A stretch of 64,000 nt of DNA from a virus (IMGVR_UViG_3300021085_000019:19653-83652), one strand, 5' to 3'; shown: positions 51,581 to 62,814, counted from the first letter of the stretch. The notes: generated by a model not told the origin, from the sequence alone. Made by a program: numbers and translations.

Positions 51581-51609
51581 TGTACAAACACGTTAAAATG
51601 TGGTATAAT
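51581..51609 (+). promoter_or_regulatory. Early promoter of g45
   Basis: TGTACA-N17-TATAAT with TGTGG extension. Confidence 0.8.
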
Positions 51610-51637: not shown

Positions 51638-52303
51638 ATGAAAATATCAAGTGAAACAATTAGTATCCTAAAAAACTTTTCGGGTATTAATGCAAATCTA
51701 GTCTTTAAACCTGGAAAGGAACTAAAGACTATTTCGGAAGCAAAAACTATTATGGCAACCGCATCAATCCTAGAGGACTTTCCTGTAGAATTTGGTGTGT
51801 ATGATCTTAACGAGTTTTTGTCGTTGTATAATCTTATGGAAGATCCTACATTAGAATTTAGTGATAAGTATCTCACTATCTCAGATGGATCACAAAAGAT
51901 TAAATATTATTATTCTGAAGTCGATATCCTTACACAACCAAGTAAAGATATCAACATGCCAGAGTGTGAAGTTGTGTTAGATTTATCAATGGAAAACCTC
52001 CAGAAGATTCAAAAAGCAGCCGCTGTACTCGGACATTCAGAACTGAGTTTTATTGGTGATGGTAATAGCGTTGTCGCATCTGTATTTAATGAGAAAGATT
52101 CTACTGCAAATACATTTGATATCGACCTAGGTATTGGCACCAGTGAGACTTTTAATTATGTCTTTAGTATTTCTAATTTAAAAATGCTACAAGGCGATTA
52201 TAAAGTATCGATTTCATCTAGGCTCATTTCTAATTGGAGAAATGCTGATAATCCTTTAGATTATTTTATCGCTTTAGAGAAATCATCAAGTTTCGGTGTA
52301 TAA
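51638..52303 (+). CDS. g45: Sliding clamp gp45
   Basis: LKNFSGIN; FGVYDLNEFL; YFIALE. Confidence 0.95.
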   Translation: MKISSETISILKNFSGINANLVFKPGKELKTISEAKTIMATASILEDFPVEFGVYDLNEFLSLYNLMEDPTLEFSDKYLTISDGSQKIKYYYSEVDILTQPSKDINMPECEVVLDLSMENLQKIQKAAAVLGHSELSFIGDGNSVVASVFNEKDSTANTFDIDLGIGTSETFNYVFSISNLKMLQGDYKVSISSRLISNWRNADNPLDYFIALEKSSSFGV

Positions 52304-52306
52304 ATA
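52299..52306 (+). promoter_or_regulatory. T4-type late promoter
   Basis: TATAAATA overlapping the g45 stop. Confidence 0.75.
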
Positions 52307-52349
52307 AATATGCACAGAAAAAATTCTCATAATATTATGAGGATAATAC

Positions 52350-52378
52350 GAGAAGATGCCGAATTGGTCGGGTCTCTC
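52350..52378 (+). promoter_or_regulatory. Conserved leader RNA hairpin, copy 1
   Basis: GAGA-A-GATGCCGAATTGGTCGGGTC-TCTC; 20-nt core identical to 54844-54863. Confidence 0.7.
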
Positions 52379-52409
52379 ATAATTAGTCTACTTTGCAAAG
52401 GAGAAGAAA

Positions 52410-52685
52410 ATGACTGAAGAAGTAAACGCACCTGAAGGTGTACAAGAGGAGCAACAAGCTCCACAACTGTCTCTACAAGACATTGCAACTTTCGTACAGA
52501 TTATCGATATCTGTTCTAAAAGGGGTGGTTTTGAAGGTCAGGAAATGGAAGCTGTTGGCGGACTCAGAAACAGAACTGTTGCATTTCTAAATGCGGCATC
52601 TGCTGAGCAGGGCAAAGAAGCTCCAGAAGGCATGGTCCCAGCTGGCGACGATTTGCCTGAAACAGTTGAAGCTGAAGAAGCTTAA
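52410..52685 (+). CDS. Conserved viral hypothetical protein (91 aa)
   Basis: AAGGAG SD; IIDICSKRGGFEGQEM..VG core. Confidence 0.8.
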   Translation: MTEEVNAPEGVQEEQQAPQLSLQDIATFVQIIDICSKRGGFEGQEMEAVGGLRNRTVAFLNAASAEQGKEAPEGMVPAGDDLPETVEAEEA

Positions 52686-52700
52686 TTGTACTAGCTTAAT

Positions 52701-52719
52701 GTGGGGGTAGCTCCCCCAC
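52701..52719 (+). terminator. GC-rich hairpin (terminator or processing site)
   Basis: GTGGGGG-TAGCT-CCCCCAC; U-tract not immediately adjacent. Confidence 0.5.
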
Positions 52720-52751
52720 GCACTACTAATTTTTATTATGAAGGATATATT

Positions 52752-53009
52752 ATGGATCGCAATGAAGTTTCGCGTCTTATTGACGCACTTAAAAAAGGTA
52801 CTGTAACGGTCACCTTTCAGAAAATTGACTCTGACGAAATACGAGTCATGCCCTGCACTCTCAACCCTACTGTACTACAAGCGCACGGAATGAAATCCGT
52901 GATTGAAAGCGTTAGTCCTGAAACCGAGCACATTGCTGCATGGTCTCTAGACAAAGAAGCGTGGAGATCATTTCGCGTTAACACAGTTATTGGTTGGGAG
53001 GTATTATAA
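52752..53009 (+). CDS. SH3/WYL-like beta-barrel protein (DUF2693-like)
   Basis: V.FQK.D...R.M.CTL; WSLDKEAWRSFR. Start at ATG 52752 after GAAGGA. Confidence 0.7.
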   Translation: MDRNEVSRLIDALKKGTVTVTFQKIDSDEIRVMPCTLNPTVLQAHGMKSVIESVSPETEHIAAWSLDKEAWRSFRVNTVIGWEVL

Positions 53010-53944
53010 TGTCAGAATTTCTTTGGGTTGAAAAATATCGTCCACAAAAAATTCAAGACTGCATTTTACCAAAATCAATCAAGAAAACTTTTGAAGATAT
53101 TGTTAAAGGAGGTGACCTACACAATATGCTTCTTACCGGAACAGCCGGCCTGGGTAAAACAACAGTCGCGAAAGCTTTATGTAACGAACTTGAACTAGAT
53201 TATCTTCTGATCAATGGATCCGAAGAATCTGGCATTGATACTCTGCGCAACAAGATCAAACAATTTGCATCTACAGTTTCACTTCAAGGTGGCTACAAAG
53301 TAGTTATTTTGGATGAAGCAGATTATCTTAACGCTCAATCAACGCAACCTGCATTACGTGGTTTTATTGAAGAGTTCTCAAATAACTGTCGATTTATATT
53401 GACATGTAATTTCAAGAACAGAATCATTGAACCCTTGCATTCACGTTGTACTACCATTGAGTTTAACGTTTCTAAGAAAGATTCAGTTCCACTTTGTGGA
53501 CAATTTCTCAAACGTTGTACATCAATCCTAACGGACGAAGGTATATCATTTGATGAAAAGGTAGTTGCTGAACTTATTATGAAACACATGCCTGATTGGC
53601 GTAAAGTTCTAAATGAACTTCAACGTTACAGTAGTAGCGGTACTATTGATACAGGCATTTTAGTATCTTTATCGGAAGTCTCTCTTAATGATCTTATGAT
53701 TCACTTAAAAGAGAAAAACTTTAAAGGTATGCGTCAGTGGGTAAGTAATAATATTGATTCTGAACCTGCAGCAATTTATCGTAAAATTTATGATAATATG
53801 AATGACTATATTGATCCTCAGAGTATACCACAATTGGTACTTATTCTAGCGGATTATCAATACAAGAATTCTTTTGTTGCAGATCACGAATTAAATACTG
53901 TTGCTTGTCTTACTGAGGTAATGGCGGGGGTTCGTTTCAAATGA
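53009..53944 (+). CDS. g44: Clamp loader large subunit gp44
   Basis: LWVEKYRP; GTAGLGKT; ILDEAD; SRC. Start at ATG 53009 after GGAGG. Confidence 0.95.
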   Translation: MSEFLWVEKYRPQKIQDCILPKSIKKTFEDIVKGGDLHNMLLTGTAGLGKTTVAKALCNELELDYLLINGSEESGIDTLRNKIKQFASTVSLQGGYKVVILDEADYLNAQSTQPALRGFIEEFSNNCRFILTCNFKNRIIEPLHSRCTTIEFNVSKKDSVPLCGQFLKRCTSILTDEGISFDEKVVAELIMKHMPDWRKVLNELQRYSSSGTIDTGILVSLSEVSLNDLMIHLKEKNFKGMRQWVSNNIDSEPAAIYRKIYDNMNDYIDPQSIPQLVLILADYQYKNSFVADHELNTVACLTEVMAGVRFK

Positions 53945-54321
53945 ACCCCTTCGATTATCTAAACGCAATTAATGTAACAAAAAAGGATATAATGGTTGAT
54001 GATGTTTCTGAAAAAGCATATGCTCCATTTATGGTAAATCGTGGACTTTCTTATTTTCCTGACACTGTTCTTTTCGCTAATGAGATGAATGTAAATCATC
54101 ATATTGATCATCGTCTTCAATTTGATTTTTTTATAAATATAATTAACAAGAAGAAAAGATTTTCTAAATGGGCCAAACCCATTGACATAGAAAATTTAGA
54201 ATTAATAAAAGAATATTATGGATATAGTAATGAAAAAGCTAAATCTGTATTGTCATTATTAACTAATGATGAAATTAACGAATTGAAATTAAGGATTTAT
54301 AAAGGTGGAAAACGAAAATAA
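53941..54321 (+). CDS. g62: Clamp loader small subunit gp62
   Basis: Y.PFMVNRGLS; KKKRFSKW; YYGYSNEKA. Confidence 0.92.
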   Translation: MNPFDYLNAINVTKKDIMVDDVSEKAYAPFMVNRGLSYFPDTVLFANEMNVNHHIDHRLQFDFFINIINKKKRFSKWAKPIDIENLELIKEYYGYSNEKAKSVLSLLTNDEINELKLRIYKGGKRK

Positions 54322-54739
54322 TATTGAAGTCCAGTGGACTCCTGCTTCTATGTTGGAGATCACGCTTAACGAACCAGACGATTTTCTAAAAATCAGAGAA
54401 ACATTAACACGTATTGGTGTAGCGTCTAGAAAAGATCAAAAGCTATATCAATCATGTCATATACTGCATAAACAGGGAAGGTACTTTATTGTACACTTTA
54501 AAGAGTTATTCCTACTAGATGGGAAACCTTCAAACCTATTACTAAACGACATTCAACGTAGAAATACAATTGCTACGTTATTGGCAGACTGGGGGCTTAT
54601 TACTTTTGTTAGCTCTGAACAAGCTAAAGATATTGCACCGTTAAGGCAGATTAAAGTTATTCCATATAAGGAAAAAACACAATGGCAACTATGTCCTAAA
54701 TATAATATAGGAAATAGTAACAATGGAGAAAAAACTTAA
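54305..54739 (+). CDS. regA: Translational repressor RegA
   Basis: DDFLKIRETLTRIG; LYQSCHILHKQGRYFIVHFKELF. Confidence 0.96.
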   Translation: MENENNIEVQWTPASMLEITLNEPDDFLKIRETLTRIGVASRKDQKLYQSCHILHKQGRYFIVHFKELFLLDGKPSNLLLNDIQRRNTIATLLADWGLITFVSSEQAKDIAPLRQIKVIPYKEKTQWQLCPKYNIGNSNNGEKT

Positions 54740-54812
54740 AAAATATTGGAAACAATTTCATAAATTTATGAAGTGCGGCAGAATTAATAAAGTCGTTAAA
54801 AAATGTTTCTAA
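54723..54812 (+). CDS. Putative 29-aa cationic peptide (not in the ORF track)
   Basis: MEKKLKKYWKQFHKFMKCGRINKVVKKCF; overlaps the regA end; weak AGGA SD. Confidence 0.45.
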   Translation: MEKKLKKYWKQFHKFMKCGRINKVVKKCF

Positions 54813-54829
54813 AGTAACAGTGAAAGCTG

Positions 54830-54868
54830 TATAAATAAATGTGGATGCCGAATTGGTCGGGTCCACAT
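54830..54868 (+). promoter_or_regulatory. Late promoter plus conserved leader RNA hairpin, copy 2
   Basis: TATAAATA at 54830-54837, then ATGTG-GATGCCGAATTGGTCGGGTC-CACAT. Confidence 0.75.
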
Positions 54869-54900
54869 ATTAACCTTGCTATATATAGGAGGAAACTAAA

Positions 54901-55353
54901 ATGGTAAGAAGTACTATGAACGTACCACGTTCACTTTTCATTGGATTTGATCCAATATTAAACGAGCTTGAAAGAATTCACTCAGCTGGAAGATCTCAAG
55001 ATAACTATCCCCCACACAACGTTGTGAAGATCGATAATGATAACTTCAATATCGAACTCGCTGTTGCAGGATTTTCGGAAGAAGACATTTCTGTAGAAGT
55101 AAAGGATGGTATTCTATTAGTTAAAGGTCAACAAAGTGATGATGATCGTGAATACGCACACAAAGGTATCTCGTCCCGCAAATTTGAGAAGTCCTTCCGA
55201 CTCTCAGAATTTGTCGTAATAGATGGGGCCGATCTCGTGAACGGCATACTTGTGGTGAATGCCAGAGTTGAAGTTCCAGAAGAGAGGCGTCCTAGGAAGA
55301 TCGAAATCGGGTCTGCTGGGGCATCAAAGAAGAAGGAATTTATCCAAGATTAA
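54901..55353 (+). CDS. hsp20: Small heat-shock protein (IbpA-like)
   Basis: NYPPHN; IELAVAGF; HKGISSRKF; NGILVV; PEERRPRKIEI. Confidence 0.95.
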   Translation: MVRSTMNVPRSLFIGFDPILNELERIHSAGRSQDNYPPHNVVKIDNDNFNIELAVAGFSEEDISVEVKDGILLVKGQQSDDDREYAHKGISSRKFEKSFRLSEFVVIDGADLVNGILVVNARVEVPEERRPRKIEIGSAGASKKKEFIQD

Positions 55354-55411: not shown

Positions 55412-55531
55412 ATGGGTTACATACGTAAACACAAGGAAGGCATTAGATCTGGATTCGAATTAATGTTTATTATGGCTGGAATACTTTCTGTATCTCCACT
55501 GATAATTTACTTTCAAATGAATTCATTCTAA
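55412..55531 (+). CDS. Putative 39-aa single-pass membrane peptide (not in the ORF track)
   Basis: GGAG SD; MGYIRKHKEGIRSGFELMFIMAGILSVSPLIIYFQMNSF; followed by a terminator-like hairpin. Confidence 0.6.
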   Translation: MGYIRKHKEGIRSGFELMFIMAGILSVSPLIIYFQMNSF

Positions 55532-55544
55532 AGTCGACCTATCC

Positions 55545-55574
55545 GAGGGAGGGTAAAATCTCCCTCAACTTTTT
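55545..55574 (+). terminator. Probable rho-independent terminator
   Basis: GAGGGAG-N8-CTCCCTC, then AACTTTTT. Confidence 0.65.
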
Positions 55575-55575
55575 A

Positions 55576-55604
55576 TGTACAATGTGTTTAAATTATGATA
55601 TAAT
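55576..55604 (+). promoter_or_regulatory. Early promoter of g43
   Basis: TGTACA-N17-TATAAT with TG extension. Confidence 0.75.
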
Positions 55605-62737: not shown

Positions 62738-62814
62738 GCGCTTGTAGCTCAGCTGGATAGAGCATCGGCCTTCTAAGCCGAGGGTCTCAGGTTCGAATCC
62801 TGACAGGCGCGCCA
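62738..62814 (+). tRNA. tRNA-Arg(UCU)
   Basis: Acceptor GCGCTTG/CAGGCGC; D-arm GCTC..GAGC; anticodon arm TCGGC-CTTCTAA-GCCGA; TTCGAAT T-loop; encoded CCA. Confidence 0.95.

What the first reader, a model, noticed from the sequence alone, without database searches (positions are those of the whole stretch)
52299..54900. Shared structured leader RNA links hsp20 and an unknown 91-aa gene: candidate phage post-transcriptional regulon
Seen: GATGCCGAATTGGTCGGGTC is identical at 52355-52374 and 54844-54863. It folds as GAU/GUC, a bulged G, CCGA/UCGG and an AUUGG loop. The flanks differ in sequence yet both extend the stem (GAGA/TCTC versus ATGTG/CACAT), which argues for selection on RNA structure. 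Both copies follow a TATAAATA late promoter and precede a C(T)TTGC box and a strong AGGAG SD. Inference: a cis-regulatory element (protein-binding operator, thermosensor or stabiliser) co-regulates a small heat-shock chaperone and an uncharacterised protein, implying the latter acts in late-stage proteostasis or assembly. regA lies between the copies and is an obvious candidate ligand.
Basis: partly seen in the sequence, partly recalled or inferred. Interest (0 to 1): 0.75.

Follow-up and report, generated by a model that had tools for sequence, protein, structure and literature searches.

The report
ROSE-like leader hairpin on two phage genes
The repeated 20-base hairpin is the first stem-loop of a bacterial-type "ROSE" heat-sensing RNA leader that this marine T4-like phage carries in full before its small heat-shock gene, and in a diverged form before an unknown 91-aa gene next to the sliding-clamp gene; its response to temperature is untested.

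Summary
The 20-mer is exact at 52355-52374 and 54844-54863, with none expected by chance and no third copy in the 83.6-kb record.

It is not a new motif. Rfam ROSE_3 (short ROSE-like thermometer) matches both leaders end to end, below its cut-off of 43 bits (33.7 and 21.7). The 20-mer core equals the family consensus for hairpin I.

- **hsp20 leader:** a complete two-hairpin ROSE-like element behind TATAAATA. Hairpin I covaries in 11 of 12 pairs across 38 distinct relatives. Hairpin II pairs CUUGCU with AGGAGG around an unpaired G.
- **91-aa gene leader:** a diverged relative with an extra 5' hairpin, the same hairpin I (8 of 10 pairs covary) and a different small hairpin next to the SD.
- **Shared core:** U.G, bulged G, C-G is invariant in all 50 distinct 91-aa leaders and in 35 of 38 hsp20 leaders.
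- **Relatives:** the hsp20 leader is also in the cultured phages Melnitz and C48C1 and in alphaproteobacterial ibpA genes.
- **The two copies:** they differ in 30 of 35 related genomes, so their identity here is shared consensus.
- **Ligand and function:** RegA is not needed to explain the hairpin. The 91-aa protein is syntenic with gp45, not with chaperones.

This scan has already followed up ROSE-like phage hsp20 leaders on other DNA.

The parts
52299..52306 (+). TATAAATA box (T4-type late-promoter consensus) before the 91-aa gene. It overlaps gp45's last codon and stop (GTA TAA).
   Evidence: Conserved in relatives, but TATAAGTA in L033 and L050, so promoter status is less certain than for hsp20.
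52323..52344 (+). Hairpin 0 of the 91-aa leader (AUUCUCAUA / UAUGAGGAU, loop AUAU)
   Evidence: Fold. 5 of 8 pairs change on both sides and 96% of cells are paired in 50 distinct leaders.
52350..52378 (+). Hairpin I, copy 1: GAGA-A-GAU-[G]-CCGA / loop AUUGG / UCGG-GUC-UCUC. The bulged G is at 52358.
   Evidence: 8 of 10 pairs covary, and the U.G / bulged G / C-G core is invariant in 50 of 50.
52385..52415 (+). RBS box of the 91-aa gene. AGUC (52385-88) can pair with GACU (52412-15, covering the G of AUG and codon 2). Inside lies the small palindromic hairpin CUUUGCAAAG (52391-52400), which abuts and overlaps the SD AAGGAG (52398-52403).
   Evidence: Nearly invariant. Variants CUUUGAUCAAAG and CUAUGCAUAG keep the palindrome. 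Codon 2 is always ACU or GCU.
52410..52685 (+). 91-aa gene: two predicted helices (22-38, 44-67) between disordered acidic tails. It belongs to a family of unnamed proteins seen in marine viral contigs and metagenome assemblies, function unknown.
   Evidence: (phrog_13789 only).
52701..52719 (+). GC-rich hairpin after the 91-aa gene (GUGGGGG / CCCCCAC), with a T-run 10 nt further on; a possible terminator.
   Evidence: Read by eye. Not called by the simple scan.
54830..54837 (+). TATAAATA late-promoter box of hsp20
   Evidence: Present at the same distance in all 80 related hsp20 loci.
54839..54868 (+). Hairpin I, copy 2: AUGUGGAU-[G]-CCGA / AUUGG / UCGG-GUCCACAU. The bulged G is at 54847.
   Evidence: 11 of 12 pairs change on both sides. 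It aligns to hairpin I of ROSE_3.
54874..54892 (+). Hairpin II (candidate thermosensor): the anti-SD CUUGCU (54875-80) pairs with the SD AGGAGG (54887-92), with G54878 unpaired or opposite a G.
   Evidence: -3.5 kcal/mol at 37 C, -6.8 at 15 C. The UUGCU/AGGAG core is invariant and the outer pair switches C-G to U-A in 7 distinct rows.
54901..55353 (+). hsp20, an IbpA-type small heat-shock protein
   Evidence: PF00011 3.7e-17 and phrog_432. 38% identical to E. coli IbpA; it keeps the Y34 and R93 equivalents.
55545..55566 (+). Terminator-like hairpin with a T-run that closes the hsp20 unit

Best explanation
The 20-mer is hairpin I of a short, two-hairpin ROSE-like 5' leader of the kind described for Pseudomonas ibpA (Rfam ROSE_3). 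Before hsp20 the whole element is present. A phage late-promoter box replaces the bacterial heat-shock promoter. A stable hairpin I follows directly. After a 5-nt linker comes a weak hairpin II, in which the ROSE anti-SD CUUGCU pairs with the Shine-Dalgarno AGGAGG around an unpaired G, 8 nt before AUG. The likely mechanism (inferred, not shown) is translational repression by hiding the ribosome-binding site. Repression would be relieved by warming, by titration of the phage's own IbpA-like Hsp20, or by both. Hairpin I would act as the temperature-insensitive folding or stabilising module. The copy before the 91-aa gene belongs to a diverged relative of this leader. It has an added 5' hairpin, the same hairpin I with the same invariant core (U.G, bulged G, C-G), and a different RBS box. 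That box is a 4-bp helix closing over the start codon around a tiny AU-rich hairpin that overlaps the SD. In this clade the leader separates the 91-aa gene from gp45 and gives it its own translational control. The exact identity of the two copies in this genome means only that both keep the consensus.
For: ROSE_3 aligns to both leaders over model positions 1-69. Its consensus hairpin I reads GAUGCCGAA...CGGGUC, the same letters as the 20-mer. All 80 related hsp20 loci have box + hairpin I + (A)AYCUUGCU...AGGAG + AUG. On 38 distinct leaders 94.5% of cells are paired, against 35-51% when partners are slid; 11 of 12 hairpin I pairs change on both sides, as does the outer pair of hairpin II. The 91-aa leader was found upstream of the gene in every p91 locus with enough upstream sequence. 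On 50 distinct leaders 96.2% of cells are paired, and 8 of 10 hairpin I pairs and 5 of 8 hairpin 0 pairs covary. The models hit each other's leader and nothing else credible: R1 scores the 91-aa leader at 21.1 bits, and R2 scores hsp20 leaders at 26-44 bits. The same leader stands before hsp20 in Methylophilales phage Melnitz (R1 56 bits, ROSE_3 34.1) and Phage C48C1 (28.5 and 26.8). It also stands before ibpA-like genes of uncultured Alphaproteobacteria, including a 2.4-Mb Micavibrio chromosome. Hairpin I is stable and hairpin II marginal (-14.5 against -3.5 kcal/mol at 37 C). This matches the probing of the Pseudomonas elements, where hairpin II melts and hairpin I does not (PMC3669281). The phage Hsp20 keeps the residues needed for IbpA binding to its own 5'UTR (PMC10474464).
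Against: Both matches are below Rfam's gathering score (33.7 and 21.7 against 43 bits). No temperature response has been measured for any phage copy. Nearest-neighbour modelling does not show a masked SD. With coding context, the anti-SD prefers the start codon region AUGGUAAG and leaves the SD region 0.68 unpaired. The 91-aa leader lacks the U(U/C)GCU motif, reading UUUGCA. One clade has a different sequence at the SD (AAACCCCGGAG), so it may not be a thermometer at all. The lower stem of the hsp20 hairpin I lies in the 5 nt after TATAAATA, which a T4-type late transcript would not contain, yet it covaries. The transcript 5' end is therefore unresolved.
Confidence: 0.8

Rival explanations
1. 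Hairpin I is chiefly an operator for a trans-acting protein, most plausibly the phage's IbpA-type Hsp20. Free Hsp20 would bind the leaders and repress translation of hsp20 and the 91-aa gene. Aggregating late proteins would titrate it away. The two genes would then form an aggregation-sensing regulon.
For: The U.G / bulged G / C-G core is invariant in sequence (50 of 50 and 35 of 38 distinct leaders) while the rest of the stem covaries freely. This is more than stability requires. The same core occurs in the bacterial ROSE_3 consensus. E. coli IbpA represses ibpA, ibpB and rpoH translation through their 5'UTR stem-loops, and upstream stem-loops matter. The phage Hsp20 keeps the R93 and Y34 equivalents and a basic residue at 97. 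In one clade both copies changed the same pair next to the U.G.
Against: No binding data exist. The K98 equivalent, needed in E. coli, is Ser here. The RNA determinants of IbpA binding are not defined in the papers read. The parallel changes sit in a single clade and could be gene conversion. Hairpin-I deletion mutants of the Pseudomonas leaders still thermoregulate.
Confidence: 0.25
2. Hairpin I is only a 5' stabiliser or folding aid that protects the two mRNAs from 5'-end-dependent decay, with no shared regulation. The 91-aa leader is simply a structured spacer.
For: Hairpin I starts 1-2 nt after the promoter box in the hsp20 leader, so it sits at or near the 5' end. Krajewski et al. propose just this role for the Pseudomonas hairpin I, which does not melt up to 50 C. 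It is stable.
Against: In the 91-aa leader hairpin I is internal, about 40 nt from the predicted start and behind hairpin 0, so it is not a 5'-terminal cap. The strict sequence invariance of the bulge region is not needed for stability.
Confidence: 0.3
3. RegA, encoded between the copies, is the ligand of the shared hairpin.
For: regA (PF01818, 9e-44) lies at 54305-54739. From my own knowledge, T4 RegA represses genes of this same cluster.
Against: The hairpin core is the consensus of a bacterial family and stands before ibpA on a Micavibrio chromosome, in cells not expected to encode RegA. From my own knowledge, known RegA sites are unstructured AU-rich stretches at the start codon.
Confidence: 0.04
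4. The identity reflects a recent duplication, gene conversion or a small mobile repeat and not a selected structure.
For: The match is an exact 20 of 20 in this genome. Some parallel substitutions occur in both copies within one clade.
Against: The two copies differ in 30 of 35 related genomes, and each covaries on its own. The flanks are unrelated. Only two copies occur per genome, always at the same two genes.
Confidence: 0.03

Closest known systems
Short ROSE-like RNA thermometers of Pseudomonas ibpA (Rfam ROSE_3, RF02523; Krajewski et al. 2013, PMC3669281)
   Same: Two hairpins. A GC-rich hairpin I with the same core letters (GAUGCCGA...UCGGGUC). U(U/C)GCU pairs with the SD in a short, weak hairpin II. 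The AUG lies outside hairpin II. It sits before an IbpA-type sHSP gene.
   Different: Here it is encoded by a phage and driven by TATAAATA, not a sigma-32 promoter. The leader is AU-rich. The score is below Rfam's cut-off. A second, diverged copy sits before a gene that is not a heat-shock gene.
Classical ROSE (Bradyrhizobium and other rhizobia) and enterobacterial ibpA/ibpB ROSE_2 elements
   Same: The same anti-SD motif and unpaired G opposite the SD, and the same gene family downstream.
   Different: Those have three to four hairpins and longer thermosensor stems. ROSE_2 did not match here.
IbpA self-repression through its own 5'UTR (Miwa et al., bioRxiv 10.1101/2020.04.20.050740; PMC10474464; PMC10410725)
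   Same: The phage Hsp20 keeps the R93 and Y34 equivalents, and its leader is of the ROSE type that IbpA acts on.
   Different: Nothing has been tested for a phage protein. The K98 equivalent is Ser. The second target here would be a gene of unknown function, where E. coli has ibpB and rpoH.
FourU-type and single-hairpin thermometers (Salmonella agsA, Synechocystis hsp17; cited in PMC3669281)
   Same: The 91-aa leader's CUUU can pair with GGAG in a tiny AU/GU hairpin, a fourU-like geometry.
   Different: The one compensatory variant (CUAUGCAUAG) favours the palindromic register, which covers only the 5' edge of the SD. There is no functional evidence.
T4 RegA translational operators
   Same: Translational control of genes in the 45-44-62-regA cluster.
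   Different: From my own knowledge, RegA sites are unstructured. The hairpin here also occurs in bacteria.

Membership tests
ROSE-like RNA thermometer (short, ROSE_3 type) | Lies in the 5' leader of a small heat-shock (ibpA/hsp20) gene | tested here: met
   Met for the copy at 54839-54906 (hsp20: PF00011). Not met for the copy at 52350-52415, whose gene has no Pfam family.
ROSE-like RNA thermometer (short, ROSE_3 type) | Two hairpins, with the 3' one holding the SD | tested here: met
   Fold. Covariation on 38 distinct leaders. ROSE_3 alignment over model positions 1-69.
ROSE-like RNA thermometer (short, ROSE_3 type) | [quoted passage not shown] | tested here: met
   hsp20 leader: CUUGCU with AGGAGG, G54878 unpaired; the motif is invariant in relatives. 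91-aa leader: UUUGCA, so the motif is not met.
ROSE-like RNA thermometer (short, ROSE_3 type) | Reaches Rfam's gathering score for RF02523 (43 bits) | tested here: not met
   33.7 and 21.7 bits. Melnitz 34.1 and C48C1 26.8.
ROSE-like RNA thermometer (short, ROSE_3 type) | Temperature-dependent melting of hairpin II and temperature-dependent translation | not testable with these tools
   Energy models only: hairpin II is -6.8 kcal/mol at 15 C and -3.5 at 37 C. Accessibility modelling was not decisive.
ROSE-like RNA thermometer (short, ROSE_3 type) | Transcribed from a heat-shock (sigma-32) promoter | tested here: not met
   TATAAATA lies 1 nt upstream of hairpin I in all 80 phage relatives.
IbpA-type self-regulating sHSP | Arg93 and Tyr34 of E. 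coli IbpA, and basic residues at 97 and 98 | tested here: inconclusive
   The R93 and Y34 equivalents are present, R97 is Lys, and K98 is Ser. RNA binding itself is not testable here.
T4 RegA operator | Occurs only where RegA is encoded | tested here: not met
   The hairpin core is present in the ROSE_3 consensus and before ibpA on a Micavibrio chromosome.

The most novel reading that the evidence does not exclude
Hairpin I, with its invariant U.G / bulged G / C-G core, is a portable, sequence-specific operator and not a mere stabiliser. The phage's IbpA-like Hsp20 binds it. As a result hsp20 and the clamp-adjacent 91-aa gene form a two-gene translational regulon that senses protein aggregation, or heat, during late infection. 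Hairpin I survives here without the ROSE thermosensor hairpin. That natural experiment would give the 5'-proximal ROSE hairpins a function, which Krajewski et al. say is not understood.
Probability: 0.2. Interest if true: 0.75.

Novelty: new variant of a known kind. Interest (0 to 1): 0.5.

Why it matters
My searches of the paper library found no description of ROSE-type leaders in phages. The Melnitz paper mentions hsp20 only as an auxiliary gene. If the leader works as in bacteria, a large and abundant clade of marine T4-like phages controls chaperone synthesis after transcription, with a late promoter in place of the host's heat-shock sigma factor. At least 431 viral contigs hold this hsp20 and at least 554 hold the 91-aa gene. 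The point specific to this window is that hairpin I has been kept, with an invariant bulge core, on a second gene whose SD hairpin is not of the ROSE type. This argues that hairpin I has a function of its own and makes that function testable. The element belongs to a known family, RegA is not required, and the 91-aa gene's conserved partner is the clamp gene, not a chaperone.

Tried and rejected
- **Thermodynamic SD accessibility at 5-45 C:** not decisive. The SD region is 0.68 unpaired for hsp20 and 0.62 for the 91-aa gene, which is not unusual among 29 genes of the window. With coding context the anti-SD prefers AUGGUAAG.
- **Metatranscriptome contigs from four seawater runs:** they hold the stretch without mismatches. 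Pieces begin at 52299 and 52319, and at 54763 and 54828. Contigs cannot show starts or strand, and DNA may be present, so this is no evidence of transcription units.
- **blastn 'distant' against INPHARED phages:** no match.
- **Function of the 91-aa protein:** no lead from Foldseek against PDB (best E 2.9), a PDB sequence profile, the ESM Atlas or a search for longer fused forms.
- **My own pattern scan for hairpin-I-like stems:** about 1 chance hit per 64 kb, and it missed copy 1 because of its bulged A, so it was too unspecific to list further members.
- **Weak R2 hits inside gp44 coding sequence (E 0.05-0.2):** read as chance.
It is neither supported nor excluded.
- **'Bacterial' loci L090-L094:** these are phage contigs binned into MAGs and were not used as bacterial evidence.
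- **Pseudomonas origin of the ROSE_3 seed:** I could not confirm it from a sequence. The motif is not printed in PMC3669281, and the 14 control genomes gave no hit over the cut-off.
Full report
**Observation**

The 20-mer GATGCCGAATTGGTCGGGTC occurs exactly twice on the + strand, at 52355-52374 and 54844-54863. No other site matches with up to three mismatches, and shuffles give none. The full 83.6-kb IMG/VR record that contains the window has no further copy.

Their lower stems have different sequences. Each lies between a TATAAATA box and a strong SD.

**Context**

The genes are those of a T4-like replication module, in this order:
- gp45 clamp (51638-52303)
- the 91-aa gene (52410-52685)
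- an 85-aa WYL_2 protein
- gp44, gp62 and regA
- hsp20 (54901-55353)
- gp43

This order holds in 80 related viral contigs. gp45 lies upstream of the 91-aa gene in 71 of 71 loci with enough flank. hsp20 lies downstream in 46 of 59.

Both genes with the hairpin look like small units of their own inside a cluster that otherwise has TGTACA-N17-TATAAT promoters. The nearest cultured relatives by Hsp20 are Phage C48C1 (50% identity), Methylophilales phage Melnitz (42%) and cyanophages. Melnitz clusters with the pelagimyophages (PMC9004378).

**What the element is**

A permissive Rfam scan matched ROSE_3 (RF02523) to both leaders over the whole model. The matches are 54839-54906 at 33.7 bits and 52349-52415 at 21.7 bits, against a gathering score of 43.

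The family consensus for hairpin I reads ugCGgGAUGCCGAAg-CGGGUCcCGca. The 20-mer core is therefore the family's own sequence. The model's hairpin II aligns CUUGCU...AGGAGG of the hsp20 leader to ACUcGCu...GgAGg.

Krajewski et al. (PMC3669281) describe exactly this architecture for Pseudomonas ibpA. It has two hairpins, with U(U/C)GCU pairing imperfectly with the SD in the second. Hairpin II melts with temperature and is sufficient for regulation. Hairpin I is GC-rich, strongly conserved and not responsive to temperature. Its function is 'not fully understood', with transcript stabilisation or folding proposed.

**Comparative evidence, hsp20 leader**

At least 431 viral contigs encode a close relative of this Hsp20, and I fetched the best 80. 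All 80 have the same leader plan, in 38 distinct versions.

I built a covariance model (R1) and counted pairs on its alignment:
- 94.5% of cells are paired, against 83.4% in shuffles and 35-51% with partners slid.
- 11 of 12 hairpin I pairs show changes on both sides.
- The UUGCU/AGGAG core never varies.
- The outer pair of hairpin II switches between C-G and U-A in 7 distinct rows.

This alignment was fitted to the model, which favours the structure. The raw sequences show the same compensations.

R1 also finds the leader in other places:
- Melnitz, at 56 bits, and C48C1, at 28.5 bits.
- ibpA-like genes of uncultured Alphaproteobacteria, including a 2.4-Mb Micavibrio chromosome. There the hairpin reads GAGAUGCC-UAAUGUA-GGGUCUC and is followed by AACCUUGCU...AGGAGG.

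A Synechococcus phage, S-CAM3, has the ROSE core ACUCGCU...AGGAGU behind a different upstream structure. The leader is thus an old companion of proteobacterial ibpA genes that travels with the phage gene.

**Comparative evidence, 91-aa leader**

At least 554 viral contigs encode the 91-aa protein. A second model (R2) finds its leader directly upstream of the gene in every locus with enough sequence.

On 50 distinct leaders 96.2% of cells are paired. 8 of 10 hairpin I pairs and 5 of 8 hairpin 0 pairs change on both sides.

The RBS part is almost invariant: UAGUCU-(A)A-CUUUGCAAAG-GAGAA-N4-5-AUGACU. Its small palindrome occurs as CUUUGCAAAG, CUUUGAUCAAAG and, in one divergent contig, the compensated CUAUGCAUAG. 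One clade has AAACCCCGGAG or AAACUCUGGAG instead. AGUC can pair with GACU over the start codon, and codon 2 is always ACU or GCU. This box lacks the U(U/C)GCU motif, so I do not file this leader as a ROSE thermometer.

It is nevertheless related to the hsp20 leader. R1 and ROSE_3 each score it at about 21 bits end to end. R2 scores hsp20 leaders at 26-44 bits. Neither model finds anything else credible in the window, in the whole record, or in five related contigs of 101-137 kb. The 'regulon' therefore has two members.

**The shared hairpin**

The core is 5'-U-[G]-C paired with 5'-G-G, that is a U.G wobble, a bulged G and a C-G pair. It is present in 50 of 50 distinct 91-aa leaders and in 35 of 38 hsp20 leaders, while the neighbouring pairs covary freely.

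The two copies in one genome are identical in only 5 of 35 cases. The 20 of 20 identity here is shared consensus, not concerted evolution. In one clade both copies changed the same pair next to the U.G. This might be gene conversion or selection by a common ligand, but it is a single clade.

**Mechanism**

What is shown: two conserved RNA structures, their relationship to ROSE_3, and their positions over the ribosome-binding sites.

What is inferred: translational repression relieved by warming. Isolated hairpin II is marginal (-3.5 kcal/mol at 37 C, -6.8 at 15 C) beside a stable hairpin I (-14.5), as in Pseudomonas. Whole-leader accessibility modelling was not decisive, because the anti-SD can equally pair with AUGGUAAG. 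Codons 2-3 of hsp20 (GUA AGA) are nearly invariant at synonymous sites, while later codons vary. This fits an RNA-level constraint there.

A second inferred layer comes from E. coli. There IbpA represses its own, ibpB's and rpoH's translation by binding their 5'UTR stem-loops. This needs Arg93 and Tyr34, and protein aggregates relieve it. The phage Hsp20 keeps both residues, has Lys for Arg97 and has Ser for Lys98. Hsp20 is therefore a better candidate ligand for the shared hairpin than RegA. RegA is not needed, because the hairpin exists in bacteria that are not expected to encode it.

**The 91-aa protein**

It has no Pfam family and only an unannotated PHROG. All 452 homologues are unnamed and come from marine viral or metagenome assemblies. 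The model shows two helices between disordered acidic tails (pLDDT 75.7). There is no fold or sequence match to solved structures and no fused form.

Its only firm association is with gp45. In Phage C48C1 a homologue (E 1.2e-8) starts 1 nt after the gp45 stop, with no leader. The structured leader is thus an addition in the window's clade. The proposed role in proteostasis is unsupported.

**Open points**

- The five nucleotides after the hsp20 TATAAATA form the covarying lower stem. A T4-type late start at the sixth nucleotide (54843) would exclude them.
- The box before the 91-aa gene overlaps gp45's stop codon and is TATAAGTA in some relatives.
- 5'-end mapping is needed for both. The metatranscriptome data were contigs only and cannot help.

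**Novelty and earlier work**

My paper searches found no description of ROSE-type leaders in phages. This scan has already followed up ROSE-like leaders on phage hsp20, and on dnaK, in other genomes. First readers also noted this same hairpin pair in three other genomes. I found the ROSE_3 match before consulting those notes, and they agree with it.

What this window adds is the second, non-ROSE leader that keeps hairpin I. I rate it a new variant of a known kind, with moderate interest.

Noticed in passing
window 51581-51609 and 55576-55604: Two copies of a TGTACA-N17-TATAAT promoter-like site with a TG extension, before gp45 and before gp43. This is probably the phage's early or middle promoter type, distinct from the TATAAATA boxes of the two hairpin-bearing genes.
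   Followed up: no
L090-L094 (genome contigs): Contigs filed under MAGs of Rhodobacteraceae, Gammaproteobacteria, Flavobacteriaceae and Planctomycetaceae carry this phage's hsp20 (73-93% identical) with the phage leader and TATAAATA. They look like phage contigs binned into bacterial genomes.
   Followed up: partly
window 54901-54909 and related loci: Codons 2-3 of hsp20 (GUA AGA) are almost invariant at synonymous sites in 37 distinct sequences, while codons 8-15 vary freely. AUGGUAAG is complementary to the anti-SD CUUGCUAU, a possible alternative pairing that hides the start codon.
   Followed up: partly
L208 1492-1710 (Phage C48C1, OQ984149): A homologue of the 91-aa gene starts 1 nt after the gp45 stop with no structured leader or late box, so the leader is clade-specific.
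   Followed up: yes
In relatives only the G/C part of this pairing is kept (77% of cells paired).
   Followed up: partly
window 55413-55532: A short ORF of about 39 codons lies between hsp20 and the terminator-like hairpin at 55545-55566.
   Followed up: no
L135 4992-5396: Some relatives carry an extra 134-aa ORF with hydrophobic stretches between gp44 and gp62. This pushes hsp20 further downstream.
   Followed up: no
L089 1410-1502 (Synechococcus phage S-CAM3): The cyanophage hsp20 leader has the ROSE core (ACUCGCU...AGGAGU with a bulged G). Its upstream structures are long and GC-rich and do not match hairpin I, ROSE_3 or R1.
   Followed up: partly
window 62738-62811: A tRNA gene (Rfam 70.6 bits), the only Rfam match over a gathering score in the window.
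   Followed up: no
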